Sequence record: PQ338057.1 | DNA length: 64,000 nt | Source: a phage | Reading direction: 5' to 3' (one strand) | Shown: positions 26,638 through 30,663 of the stretch, piece by piece | Layout of the letters: each line of letters begins with the position of its first letter | Position numbering within the stretch: the first letter of the stretch is position 1 | Position numbers and translations under genes: made by a program | Notes under the pieces: generated by a model | Told to the model about the DNA's origin: nothing | Databases searched by the model: none | What the model saw: the letters and a program-made list of their open reading frames with translations, nothing else

Positions 26638-27153
26638 TCACAGCAAACCGAATGAAGCACCGAGGCCAGTCACGGTATCAACTGCACTCGCCATCGCAGG
26701 GTTAGCCTGTAAACGGGCCTGCAATGAAACAGCAGCCAACGCCATCAGTCGTGTTACAGAGTTAATGCTGCTGATAGCATCACGACGACCTGCACTGGTT
26801 TTTACATCGCCAGATACCGCACCTGCAGCAACACGCCCGATCTCTGCGGTTGCACTCATGACGTAATGTGGCAGTTTCTCTTTTGCCACCTCATTAATCG
26901 GTACGCATGGCAGGCAGTGAATCTGAGCCAGAAAACCATCTACCAGCGTTGAATCTTCAGTCAGATCGGTAAGCAGCCAGATTTCTGGTGCGGTTAATAA
27001 ATGAGGTTGCGCTGGGTTCAACTTGTTCCGCAGAATCTGCACATTCATGCCAGCACGTTCTGCCAGTTGCACCAGGTTGTGGCGCAATGCGAATGCACGA
27101 CAGGCTTCATCAAAATGTGGATGTTTGGAAACTTGGTAATCAAACATGGTCAA
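26638..27153 (-). CDS. CII-like early regulator (186 CII-type)
   Basis: 171 aa, second gene of the early operon after the Apl-like gene; N-terminal HTH-like region. Confidence 0.55.
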
Positions 27154-27179
27154 TGCCTCTGATGTATTTCAGAATCGAA

Positions 27180-27401
27180 CTAATTAAGGTTTAGATTGCA
27201 TTCTGAAAGCGCATCAACGGTCATTGCTGCTATGTTGATCATCACTTTTTCGCGTTTTTTATCTTTGCGCAGTCGGTGACGGATAAGGCGTCCATCAGCC
27301 AACATGTCATTGATGGTATCGATGGATAGCCCTGTCAGCTCGCTATAGCGTTCAATAGTCACATGAGGGGTGGTAAGAGTGATTGAAATGTTAGGTCTCA
27401 T
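27180..27401 (-). CDS. Apl/Cox-like excisionase and regulator
   Basis: 73-aa HTH protein ([22 protein letters not shown]) divergent from the CI-like gene. Confidence 0.55.
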
Positions 27402-27520
27402 GATGCAACATTCCTCGTTTAATGATGATTAATCAGGACGAATACGGATCGTTTGTATTTTGTGAACACCATAAACATACGATCGCACAGTGAAATCGTC
27501 AAGATAAAAGTTCACTTGGA

Positions 27521-28096
27521 GTGACCATGAATTTGGAGAAAGGCGGACGAGGCGCTATAGAGCGCATGGTAGAAGCTTATGGATTCAAGACTCGACAGGC
27601 GTTGTGCGATCATTTAGGAATCTCTAAAAGTACACTCGCCACACGCTACATGCGTGACTCATTCCCAGCAGAATGGGTAATCCAGTGCGCCCTTGAAACA
27701 GGCACCTCGCTTAATTGGCTCACAACCGGGCATGGTTCAAAGCAAACTTCAGGTAATACAAATACTATGGAAGTTGCTAAATATGTATTATCTGATGGGG
27801 CCTTGTGTGAAGACGGTTTTTATATTTTCGATAGAGAATTTCTACCGTCGGCATTCAAGAATCTTTTTGTAATCACAGATAATAATTCTGAATTTATTTG
27901 TGATAAGGAATTTGATGATATACGTGATGGTAAATGGGTAATAAGTATTGATGGCGAAATAACGATCCGTGACATTACTCGTTTACCCGGTGGAAGAATC
28001 TTCGTCGAGGGTGGAAATAGAGCCTTCGAGTGCAAGATAGAAGATGTTGAAATAATTGGGAAAATTATAAGTTTAACAATTAAGTACGTTAGGTAA
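27521..28096 (+). CDS. CI-like immunity repressor (186 CI-type)
   Basis: 191 aa; N-terminal HTH (ALCDHLGISKSTLATRY); position upstream of int. Confidence 0.6.
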   Translation: MTMNLEKGGRGAIERMVEAYGFKTRQALCDHLGISKSTLATRYMRDSFPAEWVIQCALETGTSLNWLTTGHGSKQTSGNTNTMEVAKYVLSDGALCEDGFYIFDREFLPSAFKNLFVITDNNSEFICDKEFDDIRDGKWVISIDGEITIRDITRLPGGRIFVEGGNRAFECKIEDVEIIGKIISLTIKYVR

Positions 28097-28111
28097 TACC
28101 GGGAGGAAACT

Positions 28112-28303
28112 ATGCTTGGTAAGGTATTTTTTGTGGTTTTATCATGCTCTTTGTTATTAAACCCACTAACTACCTATGCTAAAAATTATCCTTGTTCTGG
28201 GAAAAAGGGAGGTGTCTCTCACTGTACCTCCGATGGAAAGTTCGTTTGCAATGATGGAACTATTAGTAAATCAAAAAAAATCTGTACTAAAAACTCGCGA
28301 TAA
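28112..28303 (+). CDS. small secreted cysteine-rich peptide (63 aa precursor)
   Basis: GGGAGG RBS; signal-peptide-like N-terminus; four Cys in the mature ~40 aa; AT-rich. Confidence 0.55.
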
Positions 28304-28489
28304 ATTTTGCTTTTATATCTGCGCCTAATATAACAATGAGCCGCAGGCTAACCGCAAAAGTCACATACTCACATAGCAAAAAATAGCTAACTTCATTATG
28401 GCTTCAGTGAGATGTATGGTCGCAGGATTTCATACATTGACACTGGTTATACATACAGTAAAAATGCTCTCTACTGGAGGGCATTTTTT

Positions 28490-29506
28490 ATGGCAGTACG
28501 AAAACTCACCACAGGAAAATGGCTTTGCGAATGTTACCCCGCCGGACGTAGTGGACGTCGTGTGCGTAAACAATTCGCCACCAAAGGCGAAGCTCTGGCT
28601 TTTGAGCGTCACACGATGGAAGAAACCGAAGCAAAGCCCTGGCTGGGCGAATCAGTGGATCGTCGGACATTGAAAGACGTGATTGAGCTATGGTTCAAAC
28701 TACATGGTAAATCTCTGACAGCTGGGCAGCATGTCTATGACAAACTGCTGTTGATGGTTGACGCTCTGGGCAATCCCCTTGCAACTGATCTAACCTCTAA
28801 AATGTTTGCCCACTATCGAGATAAACGCCTGACAGGTGAGATCTACTTCAGCGAGAAATGGAAGAAAGGAGCAAGCCCGGTCACCATTAACCTGGAGCAA
28901 AGCTATCTAAGTAGTGTTTTTAGCGAACTATCCCGCCTGGGCGAATGGTCGTATCCGAACCCACTGGAGAACATGCGAAAATTCACCATCGCAGAAAAAG
29001 AGATGGCATGGCTTACCCATGAGCAGATTGTTGAACTGCTGGCTGATTGCAAACGTCAGGACCCAATTCTGGCACTGGTAGTCAAGATATGCCTAAGCAC
29101 AGGCGCACGCTGGCGAGAAGCAATAAATCTTACCCGCTCGCAAGTGACCAAATACCGAATTACCTTTGTAAGAACGAAGGGGAAGAAAAACAGAAGCATC
29201 CCTATCAGTAAAGAGCTTTACGAAGAGATCATGGCGCTTGATGGGTTCAATTTCTTTACAGACTGCTATTTTCAATTTTTATCCGTGATGGAAAAAACGT
29301 CTATCGTGCTCCCTCGCGGTCAACTGACACACGTTCTGCGCCATACGTTTGCGGCGCACTTCATGATGTCGGGTGGAAATATCCTTGCTTTGCAAAAAAT
29401 CCTCGGACATCACGATATAAAAATGACTATGCGCTATGCCCATTTAGCACCCGATCATCTTGAGACGGCTCTGAGATTCAACCCCCTCGCAACGCTAGAA
29501 GTGTGA
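28490..29506 (+). CDS. int: tyrosine integrase (P2-type), 338 aa from MAVRKLTTGKW
   Basis: C-terminal R..HxxR..Y pattern (LRHTFAAH...MRYAHLAPDHL); GGAGGG RBS; adjacent to attR. Confidence 0.9.
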   Translation: MAVRKLTTGKWLCECYPAGRSGRRVRKQFATKGEALAFERHTMEETEAKPWLGESVDRRTLKDVIELWFKLHGKSLTAGQHVYDKLLLMVDALGNPLATDLTSKMFAHYRDKRLTGEIYFSEKWKKGASPVTINLEQSYLSSVFSELSRLGEWSYPNPLENMRKFTIAEKEMAWLTHEQIVELLADCKRQDPILALVVKICLSTGARWREAINLTRSQVTKYRITFVRTKGKKNRSIPISKELYEEIMALDGFNFFTDCYFQFLSVMEKTSIVLPRGQLTHVLRHTFAAHFMMSGGNILALQKILGHHDIKMTMRYAHLAPDHLETALRFNPLATLEV

Positions 29507-29614
29507 TCTACTGGTGCAAAAATAACATCATCCCCCACTAGCTGAGTTAATTGCGTCAGAGTAAACTTTTATCAGTATATAAGTTCACTTTTATTCAATA
29601 TATTAAGAGATTAC

Positions 29615-29947
29615 ATGGCTATCATTACCGTAAAAAAACATACTGTCAAAAAAGCATTATCGATGGGATTTGAAAAAGTACTTGACGATCGTGGTTATGA
29701 TTCTGGGGCGTACTACGTTAAAGATGGCAAAAAGTGGATTTTTGATATTGTTGCGCTTAAGCAAAAACAAGGAGCAACCTCAGATGATGAGTTAAAAATC
29801 CTTGGGTATGATGTTGATACATATAATCTTGTAAAAAATGAATCTAATGAACTGGCTGAACTTTATCAAGATATTGCAGTTGAAGATGGTGAGCCAATGT
29901 ATCTAGAGGGTGGCGTGTACTTATATCCTGATGGTTCTATCCGTTAG
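29615..29947 (+). CDS. hypothetical protein (110 aa) between int and attR
   Basis: AT-rich ORF; no recognisable family. Confidence 0.45.
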   Translation: MAIITVKKHTVKKALSMGFEKVLDDRGYDSGAYYVKDGKKWIFDIVALKQKQGATSDDELKILGYDVDTYNLVKNESNELAELYQDIAVEDGEPMYLEGGVYLYPDGSIR

Positions 29948-29981
29948 CATGCAAATTGGCAGCACAACCGGGTTGTTCCAA

Positions 29982-30004
29982 ATGGCGACAAAGTGGCGGC
30001 AGCG
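29982..30004. repeat. attR core: right copy of direct repeat atggcgacaaaGtggcggcagcg
   Basis: Matches 6010-6032 at 22 of 23 positions. Confidence 0.75.
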
Positions 30005-30126
30005 GTTGGCATTACCCCGTAATAACCACCACTGACCACCAACCCAACTTATTGTTTTTACTATAACTTATTGTTTTCATTAACCCGTTTACATAAATGG
30101 GTTTTTTGTTATCTAAAACTTATCTA

Positions 30127-30663
30127 CTACCCTGCAACCCTCTCAACCATCCTCAAAATCTCCTCGCGCGATAGCGGCTTACGGTCGGTGACAAAATGCA
30201 GCGTCATCCCCTCAATAAACGCATCAAGCGCGCGGGCGGTTCCGGGTTCAAACCATTGTTCGAGCGTTTGCTGACTGCGCTGCATCCAGTTTTGCATTAC
30301 CGTTTTTAATAGCGGTTTTCGGCTAGCCAGCGCGTAGAGCTGGTACATCAGCTCCATGTTATCCGGCGTTGCAACCTGTGAGCTGTAGATCATATCGGTG
30401 ATAGCCTGGCATGCGCCCGGAGCATCACTAACATCGCTAAAAAATGCCTGATATTGCCGGGACATGATCTCAGTAAAACTGCTGAACGCCTCCAGTAACA
30501 ACTCATCAATTCCTGAAAAATAGTAGGTCATCGATCCCAACGGTACCCCGGCAAGGGTAGCAATTTTGCGGTGCGTAACAGCATGTATTCCGTAAAGTTT
30601 CACCGCCTCCAGCGTGGCCTGGATAATTTTTTCTCGCCGTTGCGGATCGTTAGCGCGACGCAT
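30127..30663 (-). CDS. rcdA: TetR-family regulator RcdA (YbjK), 178 aa from [13 protein letters not shown]
   Basis: TetR HTH N-terminus; synteny. Confidence 0.85.

What the first reader, a model, noticed from the sequence alone, without database searches (positions are those of the whole stretch)
28112..28303. Small secreted cysteine-rich peptide gene between cI and int
This 63-aa ORF has a strong RBS (GGGAGG), a signal-peptide-like N-terminus and four cysteines in a ~40-aa mature region. It lies on the lysogenic transcript between the repressor and integrase, so it would be expressed in the lysogen. That placement is typical of lysogenic-conversion or exclusion factors. It is AT-rich and I recognise no family.
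Basis: inference. Interest (0 to 1): 0.45.

Follow-up and report, generated by a model that had tools for sequence, protein, structure and literature searches.

The report
Prophage copy of periplasmic mini-protein YdcA
The small ORF is a real, well-conserved gene for an exported, cysteine-knotted 40-residue protein of the already catalogued YdcA family, carried as cargo behind the repressor gene of a P2/186-like prophage of E. coli B; nobody has shown what it does.

Summary
Window 28112..28303 (+) is a 63-aa ORF with a GGGAGG ribosome-binding site, a Sec-type signal peptide and four conserved cysteines. It starts 15 nt after the cI stop in the 186-like prophage of E. coli B (REL606/BL21).

It does belong to a known family. 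It passes the curated NCBIfam model NF007463, and it matches phrog_6000 and Pfam PF27300 (YdcA). RefSeq now names it "YdcA family protein". It is a 57%-identical second copy of the core E. coli gene ydcA.

The gene is under strong purifying selection (11 synonymous against 2 non-synonymous changes).

The cI–int junction is a cargo slot. Phage 186 has nothing there. One relative carries the defence gene PD-Lambda-1, and others carry YdcA plus a KAP NTPase. Haemophilus phage HP2 has an unannotated YdcA gene overlapping its cI stop.

Two results go beyond the existing annotation. The only structural relative is a lobe of Legionella Dis2, an outer-membrane-cap subunit of a type IV secretion system. 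The domain is also fused to several unrelated exported nucleases.

Function is unproven. My best guess is a cationic periplasmic binder of DNA or envelope that gives the lysogen an exclusion-like barrier. The entity is ordinary and already known, and interest is modest.

The parts
27527..28096 (+). 186-type CI repressor gene, the first gene of the lysogenic operon. RefSeq starts it at 27527; the longest ORF starts at GTG 27521.
   Evidence: Pfam Phage_CI_repr 2.8e-33 and Phage_CI_C 8.7e-27. RefSeq annotation 'phage repressor protein CI' in REL606.
28101..28106 (+). Shine-Dalgarno GGGAGG, 5 nt upstream of the ATG.
   Evidence: Read directly from the sequence. Conserved, with GGGAGA in one variant, among E. 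coli variants.
28112..28303 (+). YdcA-family gene: 63 aa including the signal peptide, stop codon included. RefSeq WP_001321204.1.
   Evidence: NCBIfam NF007463 116.1 bits (cutoff 93). phrog_6000 4.6e-34. Precomputed Pfam PF27300 YdcA on homologues. pN/pS about 0.05.
28112..28180 (+). Signal peptide coding part (residues 1-23). Predicted SPase I cleavage is TYA|KN.
   Evidence: All 35 family members parsed in the script (the frame-disrupted P0008 could not be placed) have a variable hydrophobic leader ending in A at -1, followed by the invariant domain. Cleavage itself is inferred.
28181..28300 (+). Mature 40-aa YdcA domain [40 protein letters not shown] (4 Cys, net +7).
   Evidence: Nearly invariant across Gamma- and Beta-proteobacteria. 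AF2 pLDDT 80, small beta-hairpin fold. The only structural match is a Dis2 lobe, 7muc_AN, prob 0.94-0.97.
28437..28465 (+). Sigma-70-like promoter candidate (TTGACA-17-AAAAAT) in front of int. This is roughly where the conserved int module begins.
   Evidence: 10/12 consensus match; the scan found no more sites than shuffles give, so this is weak. Homology to phages with other cargo starts at about 28430.
28460..28488 (+). 13-bp hairpin AAAAAUGCUCUCU-ACU-GGAGGGCAUUUUU, whose U-rich 3' arm plus one further U form a 6-U run. It sequesters the int Shine-Dalgarno and is a candidate terminator and/or translational block at the end of the cI-ydcA unit.
   Evidence: dG -17.5 kcal/mol, z -5.75, 0 of 200 shuffles fold as well. 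Nearly invariant among variants: one C/U change in the loop. Function inferred.
28490..29506 (+). P2-type tyrosine integrase.
   Evidence: Pfam Int_N 2.6e-32 and Phage_integrase 8e-22. RefSeq annotation.

Best explanation
The ORF encodes a prophage-borne paralogue of the E. coli periplasmic protein YdcA.

Shown:
- It is a conserved coding gene of the YdcA family under purifying selection.
- It is placed 15 nt behind cI in a variable cargo slot of a 186-like prophage.

Inferred with good support:
- It is co-transcribed and translated with cI from the lysogenic promoter, so it is made continuously in the lysogen.
- Its leader is cut by signal peptidase I after Ala23.
- The 40-residue domain is oxidised in the periplasm to a two-disulfide, strongly cationic knot, like one lobe of Legionella Dis2.

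Inferred, tentative:
- The domain binds a conserved polyanionic ligend in the periplasm. DNA is favoured because the same domain is the N-terminal module of several unrelated exported nucleases. The inner face of the outer membrane is the alternative, because that is where Dis2 sits.
- By that binding it gives the lysogen a barrier against incoming foreign DNA, that is, a superinfection-exclusion-like moron function.
For: Identity:
- NF007463 116 bits against a cutoff of 93, and phrog_6000 4.6e-34.
- PF27300 'YdcA' on homologues.
- RefSeq name 'YdcA family protein'.
- 57% identity to K-12 YdcA b1419, which is present in 5416 of 5426 E. coli genomes.

A real, selected gene:
- 11 synonymous against 2 non-synonymous differences.
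- Variable leader and nearly invariant mature part.

Operon placement:
- 15-nt gap after cI and no terminator on the + strand before the ORF.
- In HP2 the homologue's ATG overlaps the cI stop (TAATG), although the two CIs are only 32% identical.
- The same cI-YdcA order occurs in Yersinia and Buttiauxella prophages with 34-38% identical CI. It also occurs behind HTH+S24 repressors in Comamonas, Iodobacter, Aquabacterium and Thorsellia. Together that is 14 of the 80 best species-level loci.
- The annotated lysogenic operons of 186 and K139 run cI to int.

Cargo slot:
- 186 has cI and int overlapping.
- vB_EcoM-813R9 has PD-Lambda-1 there, 3e-120.
- Relatives have cI-YdcA-KAP NTPase-int.
- K139 has the periplasmic exclusion protein Glo there (PMC3952083).
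- The gene after YdcA in HP2 hits a Sie-like PHROG, 8.6e-9.
- PMC13586616 lists integrase-primase as a minor P2 defence hotspot.

Fold and ligand:
- A PDB profile search hits Dis2, 4.6e-5.
- Dis2 is the top Foldseek hit, prob 0.97 and 0.94, TM 0.64, 38% identity.
- A Dis2 homologue carries PF27300.
- Dis2 lies next to the outer membrane and is held by disulfides (PMC8486379).
- The domain is fused to Endonuclease_NS (three proteins), SNase and PLD-type nuclease domains, and weakly to HNH.
Against: - No experiment in the held literature gives YdcA a function. The only phenotype is 3-hydroxypropionate sensitivity of an E. coli W ydcA mutant, plus reported acid induction (PMC7642389). That points to stress physiology rather than exclusion.
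- There is no PADLOC hit and no homology to Glo.
- Most family members lie outside prophage lysogeny modules. Examples are the core Escherichia locus, Citrobacter/Atlantibacter chromosomal loci, and the tail-gene region of a Moraxella phage and a poorly annotated region of an Acinetobacter phage.
- A domain this conserved across classes is unlikely to target fast-evolving phage parts.
- DNA binding is deduced from fusions only. The same fusions would fit an envelope-anchoring role.
- Dis2 itself has no known function and is dispensable (PMC12716638).
- Transcription, cleavage and disulfides were not measured.
Confidence: 0.35

Rival explanations
1. Host-fitness moron. The prophage simply adds an extra, constitutively expressed dose of a YdcA-type periplasmic protein. 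This strengthens the envelope under acid or organic-acid or other stress and benefits the lysogen without acting on phages or DNA.
For: The core ydcA is kept in 5416 of 5426 E. coli genomes. A ydcA deletion made E. coli W sensitive to 300 mM 3-hydroxypropionate, and ydcA is reported as acid-induced under YdcI (PMC7642389). Extreme conservation of the mature domain across classes fits a conserved host ligand. Dis2 sits at the outer membrane (PMC8486379).
Against: The 3-HP phenotype is a single report and was overridden by a yieP deletion. Nuclease fusions are not explained by a stress-protection role. Neighbours in the same slot are defence or exclusion genes.
Confidence: 0.3
2. Accessory of trans-envelope DNA or protein transport machines. 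A YdcA domain docks onto outer-membrane lipoprotein or secretin-like assemblies (as Dis2 docks on DotC/DotD/DotK) and modulates conjugation, type IV secretion or competence pores.
For: Dis2 homology and its contacts with DotK, DotC and DotD (PMC12716638). UniRef labels some identical proteins 'Conjugal transfer protein' (an unverified automatic name). Phage-borne copies are frequent in naturally competent genera: Haemophilus, Moraxella, Acinetobacter, Neisseria.
Against: No T4SS or competence genes lie next to the gene in the window or in the loci examined. Dis2 is dispensable, and those papers call it Legionella-specific. E. coli B has no such machine near this locus.
Confidence: 0.1
3. Selfish or neutral passenger. 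The gene is maintained only because it is wedged between two essential lysogeny genes, and it gives the lysogen no phenotype.
For: It is absent from 186, P2 and almost all sequenced Peduoviridae isolates: 140 phage records have this CI type but only HP2 and S2 carry YdcA. Sister phages function without it.
Against: There is strong purifying selection on the protein. The domain is conserved across classes. It has been placed independently behind different repressor types.
Confidence: 0.1
4. Secreted antimicrobial peptide or bacteriocin: a cationic, defensin-like disulfide peptide released to kill competitors.
For: It is small, cationic (+7) and has four cysteines. A YdcA-family gene was listed among genes associated with antimicrobial activity in Pseudomonas protegens (PMC13541209).
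Against: It has only a Sec leader, which ends in the periplasm. There is no dedicated exporter, immunity or lysis gene beside it. A core-genome paralogue is present in nearly every E. coli. Fusions to nucleases and the tandem structural form in Dis2 argue for a binding module.
Confidence: 0.04

Closest known systems
E. coli K-12 YdcA (b1419), 57-aa predicted periplasmic protein of unknown function (Pfam PF27300; NCBIfam PRK10040 group)
   Same: Same architecture: Sec leader plus a ~36-40 aa domain with the motif PCSG-KGG-[VI]SHC...KFVCNDG-[ST]-IS-x-SKK-x-C and four Cys. 57% identity, E 1e-19. Same Pfam family.
   Different: The window gene matches a different NCBIfam equivalog (NF007463, passed) from the K-12 type (NF007462, 68 bits, below its cutoff of 118). 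It is prophage cargo behind cI in about 11% of E. coli genomes rather than a core gene between rydC and hokB. Its expression signal is presumably the phage lysogenic promoter, not YdcI/YieP-linked regulation (PMC7642389).
[quoted passage not shown]
   Same: Each Dis2 lobe carries the motif CS-K-GG-[IV]-x-x-C ... G-x-x-VCN[DN]G and a similar small disulfide-pinned fold. It is the only significant sequence hit (4.6e-5) and fold hit (prob 0.94-0.97, TM 0.64) in the PDB. A Dis2 homologue carries PF27300.
   Different: Dis2 is a two-lobe protein with five disulfides, built into a 13-fold T4SS ring and contacting DotK/DotC/DotD (PMC8486379, PMC12716638). The window protein is a single lobe with four Cys, and no T4SS genes are nearby. 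The statistical support is modest.
Vibrio phage K139 Glo, soluble periplasmic superinfection-exclusion protein
   Same: It is also in a Peduoviridae lysogenic operon between cI and int (PL-cI-orf2-glo-int). It is exported to the periplasm and expressed in the lysogen (PMC3952083 citing Nesper et al. 1999).
   Different: There is no sequence similarity (E 0.18). Glo is 137 aa and not cysteine-knotted. An exclusion phenotype is shown for Glo and not tested for YdcA.
Unannotated 60-aa ORF of Haemophilus phages HP2/S2 (NC_003315 2489-2668 region; L002:2920..3102)
   Same: True homologue (mature part about 74% identical). It lies directly after a 186-type cI, with its ATG overlapping the cI stop, and upstream of int.
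   Different: It is followed by an extra exported Sie-like gene, orf1(S), before int. The host is a naturally competent Pasteurellaceae species. It is not annotated in the GenBank record.

Membership tests
YdcA family (Pfam PF27300; NCBIfam NF007463 = PRK10040.1-2) | Whole-protein HMM score above the curated cutoff | tested here: met
   NF007463 116.1 bits against a cutoff of 93, covering residues 5-63 and model positions 1-58 of 58. phrog_6000 4.6e-34. PF27300 is absent from the local Pfam copy but is precomputed on nearly all homologues and named YdcA.
YdcA family (Pfam PF27300; NCBIfam NF007463 = PRK10040.1-2) | Conserved motif with four cysteines: PCSG-K-GG-V-x-H-C ... F-V-C-x-D-G-x-x-S-x-S-K ... 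C | tested here: met
   Invariant K32 G33 G34 C38 F44 C46 G49 S52 S54 K55. At least 90% conserved: P27 C28 S29 G30 K31 V35 H37 D48 C58. Based on 36 sequences.
YdcA family (Pfam PF27300; NCBIfam NF007463 = PRK10040.1-2) | N-terminal Sec signal peptide with a small residue at -1/-3, giving a 36-41 aa basic mature product | tested here: met
   Script on the A1 alignment, 35 sequences parsed (the frame-disrupted P0008 could not be placed). A at -1 is set by the script's cleavage rule. Hydrophobic core KD at least 2.4. For the 28 single-domain members, mature length 33-52 aa (mostly 36-41) and, P0043 apart, net charge +4 to +9. SignalP itself was not available.
YdcA family (Pfam PF27300; NCBIfam NF007463 = PRK10040.1-2) | Actual periplasmic location and disulfide bonding | not testable with these tools
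   Needs PhoA fusions, fractionation and mass spectrometry. Disulfides are only seen in the homologous Dis2 lobes (PMC8486379).
Dis2 / Lpg0823 (Dot/Icm T4SS outer-membrane-cap subunit) | Two tandem lobes pinned by five disulfides | tested here: not met
   The window protein has a single domain with four Cys in the mature part. Tandem YdcA proteins do exist elsewhere (P0079-P0083).
Dis2 / Lpg0823 (Dot/Icm T4SS outer-membrane-cap subunit) | Lobe fold and sequence motif | tested here: inconclusive
   [not shown]
Dis2 / Lpg0823 (Dot/Icm T4SS outer-membrane-cap subunit) | Encoded in a genome with, and assembled into, a Dot/Icm-type T4SS | tested here: not met
   The neighbourhood is a P2/186-like prophage and rcdA-ybjJ-ybjI. 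No T4SS genes appear in the loci inspected.
Prophage superinfection-exclusion proteins of the lysogenic operon (K139 Glo type) | Gene in the repressor operon between cI and int, exported product | tested here: met
   Position. K139 layout. Export is predicted only.
Prophage superinfection-exclusion proteins of the lysogenic operon (K139 Glo type) | Sequence relatedness to a proven exclusion protein | tested here: not met
   BLASTP against Glo, E 0.18. The PHROG hit is to an 'unknown function' family.
Prophage superinfection-exclusion proteins of the lysogenic operon (K139 Glo type) | Exclusion phenotype against superinfecting phage | not testable with these tools
   Requires plating, adsorption and DNA-injection assays.
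Catalogued anti-phage defence systems (PADLOC-DB 2.0) | Match to a defence-system protein model | tested here: not met
   No hit at E <= 0.01. The occupant of the same slot in vB_EcoM-813R9 hits PD-Lambda-1 at 3e-120 in the same call.
Bacterial lipoproteins (SPase II substrates) | Lipobox [LVI][ASTVI][GAS]C placed after a full-length leader | tested here: not met
   VLSC occurs at residues 9-12. That is too early, since the hydrophobic core continues after it. In homologues the residue before this Cys is F, I or V, or the Cys is absent. The conserved cleavage motif is x-[ST]-[FY]-A|[KR]-N.

The most novel reading that the evidence does not exclude
The YdcA domain is a previously unrecognised periplasmic DNA-binding (or DNA-conduit-docking) knot. 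Exported nucleases use it as their substrate- or site-targeting module. Legionella Dis2 is a tandem YdcA protein. P2-like prophages from Enterobacteria, Pasteurellaceae and Betaproteobacteria have repeatedly wired a stand-alone copy to their repressor gene. Every lysogen therefore carries a periplasmic first-line block to incoming foreign DNA, whether by superinfection, transformation or conjugation.
Probability: 0.2. Interest if true: 0.6.

Novelty: already known. Interest (0 to 1): 0.3.

Why it matters
As an entity it is ordinary. It is an annotated member of a curated family, present in roughly one E. coli genome in nine, including the laboratory strains BL21 and REL606.

It matters modestly for three reasons.
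- YdcA is a near-universal E. coli gene with no known function. A phage-borne, repressor-linked copy in BL21 offers an easy genetic handle.
- The links found here give the first testable hypotheses for what the domain binds. These links are Dis2 as a tandem YdcA protein and the fusions to four nuclease families. The Dis2 papers describe Dis2 as Legionella-specific and without structural relatives.
- It adds a case to the picture of the cI-int junction of P2/186-like phages as a slot for lysogen-expressed cargo.

Tried and rejected
- Local Pfam-A gave no real hit for the ORF (only GULLO2-like, E 0.068), because PF27300 is newer than the local copy.
- PADLOC gave no hit.
- Rfam at a permissive threshold found nothing in 27000-30200, so there is no known RNA element in the spacer.
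- BLASTP against K139 Glo showed no similarity.
- Lipoprotein reading rejected: the lipobox is too early and not conserved.
- The overlapping +1-frame ORF 28176..28328 (50 aa) and the antisense 30-aa ORF were rejected. The substitution pattern fits the annotated frame.
- The 'ydcA' of F-like plasmids and of the gonococcal genetic island is a different gene, a DNA methylase or merely a naming coincidence.
- Literature searches for the RefSeq accessions and for 'YdcA family' found no functional study.
- Nesper et al. 1999 on K139 could not be read and is cited second-hand.
- The IMG/VR scan returned 80 near-identical E. coli prophage copies and so added no diversity.
- The promoter scan found no more sites than shuffles give. 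pL was not located.

Full report
**Where the window comes from**

The region is 100% identical to E. coli B strains (REL606, BL21(DE3) and derivatives) and a few others. In REL606 the annotated order is replication endonuclease, Dam methylase, TraR/DksA, DUF2732, DUF5347, Fil, CII and a Cox/Apl-like gene on one strand. On the other strand it is CI, a 63-aa 'hypothetical protein' (WP_001321204.1), integrase and a 110-aa hypothetical. The host genes rcdA-ybjJ-ybjI follow. This is a P2/186-like (Peduoviridae) prophage integrated beside rcdA.

**Checking the observation**

The ORF is exactly at 28112..28303 on the + strand and encodes 63 aa. GGGAGG lies at 28101-28106, 5 nt from the ATG. The cI stop is at 28094-28096.

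The leader [23 protein letters not shown] has the n-, h- and c-regions of a Sec signal peptide, with T at -3 and A at -1. The remaining 40 residues carry four cysteines, have net charge +7 and pI 9.6.

GC is 0.35-0.37 here, against about 0.5 in int. The low-GC tract also includes the C-terminal half of cI.

The ORF is not a chance frame. Between the window and E. coli variants whose spacer is 93-96% identical, the ORF differs at 11 synonymous but only 1-2 non-synonymous sites (pS 0.257, pN 0.007-0.014). In the mature part the count is 9 synonymous against one K-to-R change.

**What it is**

The protein passes the curated NCBIfam equivalog NF007463 (PRK10040.1-2; 116.1 bits, cutoff 93). It also matches phrog_6000 at 4.6e-34. 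Its homologues carry precomputed Pfam PF27300, named YdcA. Newer RefSeq annotations of the same sequence read 'YdcA family protein'.

It is 57% identical to K-12 YdcA (b1419). YdcA is a 57-aa predicted periplasmic protein of unknown function between rydC and hokB (PMC11340327). It is present in 5416 of 5426 complete E. coli genomes.

The prophage version is therefore a second, diverged copy. The whole cI-int spacer that carries it is found in 590 of 5426 genomes.

An alignment of 36 relatives shows the classic signature of an exported protein. The leader is freely variable and the mature domain is nearly invariant: [34 protein letters not shown].

An exhaustive HMM search finds 458 clusters (at 50% identity) with E <= 1e-3. 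A scan of one genome per species finds 185 species with a relative, and the 80 best loci fetched span Gamma-, Beta- and Alpha-proteobacteria.

**Genomic logic**

In phage 186 the cI stop overlaps the int start. The annotated lysogenic operon is pL-cI-int-orf69. In the window, about 335 bp (28097 to roughly 28430) are inserted at that junction. Homology to phages with different cargo resumes at about 28430.

Other phages and prophages fill the same junction differently:
- Sister phage vB_EcoM-813R9 has the same attachment site and a 94% identical int. It carries a 558-aa protein that hits the defence system PD-Lambda-1 at 3e-120.
- E. coli relatives, including NC101, carry cI-YdcA(60-61 aa)-KAP NTPase-int.
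- Klebsiella phage 4LV2017 carries a 348-aa unknown protein.
- Vibrio phage K139 carries orf2 and glo. Glo is annotated, and cited, as a soluble periplasmic protein involved in phage exclusion (PMC3952083).

PMC13586616 lists 'between integrase and primase' as a minor defence hotspot of P2-like phages. The slot is therefore a recognised place for lysogen-expressed cargo.

**Linkage to repressor genes**

The YdcA gene tends to stay glued to the repressor.
- In Haemophilus phages HP2 and S2, an unannotated 60-aa homologue starts at the last base of the cI stop codon (TAATG). The CIs of HP2 and the window are only 32% identical, while the mature peptides are about 74% identical.
- Yersinia and Buttiauxella prophages with 34-38% identical CI have the same order.
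- In Comamonas, Iodobacter, Aquabacterium, Hydrogenophilales and Thorsellia the gene follows an HTH or HTH+S24 repressor, sometimes with one lipoprotein gene in between, in P2-like prophages.

Together that is 14 of the 80 best species-level loci.

The family is not confined to that setting.
- Six loci are the core Escherichia/Shigella ydcA locus.
- Several are chromosomal in Citrobacter and Atlantibacter.
- Neisseria copies lie in Mu-like prophages.
- A Moraxella phage copy lies between head genes and the tail gene, and an Acinetobacter phage copy lies in a poorly annotated region upstream of a large gene.

It behaves as a mobile moron with several landing sites.

**Downstream signals**

No + strand terminator lies between cI and the ORF.

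Immediately before the int ATG (28490) there is a 13-bp hairpin at 28460-28488, whose U-rich 3' arm plus one further U form a 6-U run (dG -17.5 kcal/mol, z -5.75). Its 3' arm contains the int Shine-Dalgarno GGAGGG. A TTGACA-17-AAAAAT promoter-like site overlaps its 5' side.

This suggests the constitutive unit is cI-ydcA and that int is attenuated or separately controlled. That is inference only, and the scan statistics for promoters are not above background.

**Structure and remote relatives**

AlphaFold models, both full-length and mature-only, have mean pLDDT about 80 and show a short helix plus a beta-hairpin.

The only meaningful PDB relative is chain AN of 7MUC/7MUD. This is Legionella Dis2 (Lpg0823).
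- Sequence profile search: E 4.6e-5, with both Dis2 lobes aligning to the motif.
- Foldseek: top hit, prob 0.97 and 0.94, query-normalised TM 0.64, 38% identity.
- A Dis2 homologue carries PF27300.
- hhalign gives only 46% probability.

I therefore call the homology probable.

Dis2 is a two-lobed protein pinned by five disulfides. It sits next to the outer membrane in the Dot/Icm outer-membrane cap and contacts DotK, DotC and DotD. It is dispensable and has no known function. The papers describe it as Legionella-specific and without structural relatives (PMC8486379, PMC12716638).

**Domain architectures**

Among the 150 best representatives, some proteins have two or three tandem YdcA domains. 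Many Beta- and Alpha-proteobacterial forms add a second small cysteine domain that hits PBCV_basic_adap.

Of 29 longer members, three are fused to Endonuclease_NS, one to SNase, one to a PLD-type nuclease domain and one weakly to HNH. The YdcA domain always comes directly after the signal peptide.

An N-terminal module shared by unrelated exported nucleases is most simply a substrate-binding (DNA) or site-targeting (envelope) module. The strong positive charge fits either.

**Mechanism, with confidence by step**

| Step | Basis | Confidence |
|---|---|---|
| Real YdcA-family gene | shown | near certain |
| Co-expression with cI in the lysogen | inferred from spacing, from the HP2 overlap and from annotated operons in 186 and K139 | about 0.8 |
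| Sec export and cleavage after A23 | inferred from sequence features conserved across the family | about 0.85 |
| Two disulfides | inferred by analogy to Dis2 | not scored |
| Binding of a conserved polyanionic periplasmic ligand | inferred from charge, nuclease fusions and Dis2 position | about 0.5 |
| Exclusion-like barrier to incoming DNA | inferred from the slot's other occupants and repressor linkage | about 0.3 |

The main rival is an envelope or stress-fitness role, as suggested by the 3-hydroxypropionate sensitivity of a ydcA mutant and its reported acid induction (PMC7642389). A bacteriocin reading is unlikely. The protein has only a Sec leader, no exporter or immunity gene, and a paralogue in the core genome.

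**Verdict**

The gene is an already catalogued family member, and no function is established. The added value here is:
- the family assignment;
- the cargo-slot comparison;
- the unannotated HP2 homologue;
- the probable Dis2 relationship;
- the nuclease fusions, which turn 'unknown' into testable hypotheses.

Noticed in passing
window 28460-28488 (+), just upstream of the int ATG at 28490: A 13-bp A-run/U-run hairpin (dG -17.5 kcal/mol, z -5.75) whose 3' arm contains the int Shine-Dalgarno GGAGGG. It looks like a terminator and/or a translational lock on int. A TTGACA-17-AAAAAT promoter-like site (28437-28465) overlaps its 5' side. The element belongs to the conserved int module shared with Klebsiella and E. 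coli phages that carry other cargo.
   Followed up: partly
window 29615-29947 (+): A 110-aa ORF of about 34% GC lies between int and the host gene rcdA and is annotated hypothetical in REL606. It is absent from sister prophages, where int and rcdA are about 105 bp apart (813R9, L009). It has no Pfam, PHROG or PADLOC hit. It sits in the 'integrase-att' minor hotspot described for P2-like phages (PMC13586616), so it is possibly a second cargo gene.
   Followed up: partly
[not shown]
   Followed up: yes
L008:1291-2967 (Escherichia phage vB_EcoM-813R9) and L009:5198-6529 / L097:2712-4043: The same cI-int slot holds PD-Lambda-1 (annotated 'chromosome segregation ATPase') in one relative and a KAP-family NTPase downstream of YdcA in others. 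The junction is therefore a swap site for defence-type cargo.
   Followed up: yes
proteins P0201, P0186, P0224, P0122, P0212, P0205: The YdcA domain occurs as the N-terminal module of exported Endonuclease_NS, SNase, PLD-type and (weakly) HNH nucleases. It also occurs in 2-3 tandem copies (P0079-P0083). I found no mention of this in the papers searched.
   Followed up: partly
PDB 7MUC/7MUD chain AN (Legionella Dis2) versus the YdcA profile: The literature describes Dis2 as Legionella-specific with no structural relatives. Here it appears to be a tandem duplication of the widespread YdcA domain.
   Followed up: partly
window 27700-28400: The low-GC tract is not limited to the small ORF. It begins inside cI, in its C-terminal domain, which is also the part that diverges between immunity types: the N-terminal 60 residues are identical and the rest about 55% identical in L009. 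This suggests the module exchanged by recombination is 'cI C-terminal half + ydcA'.
   Followed up: no
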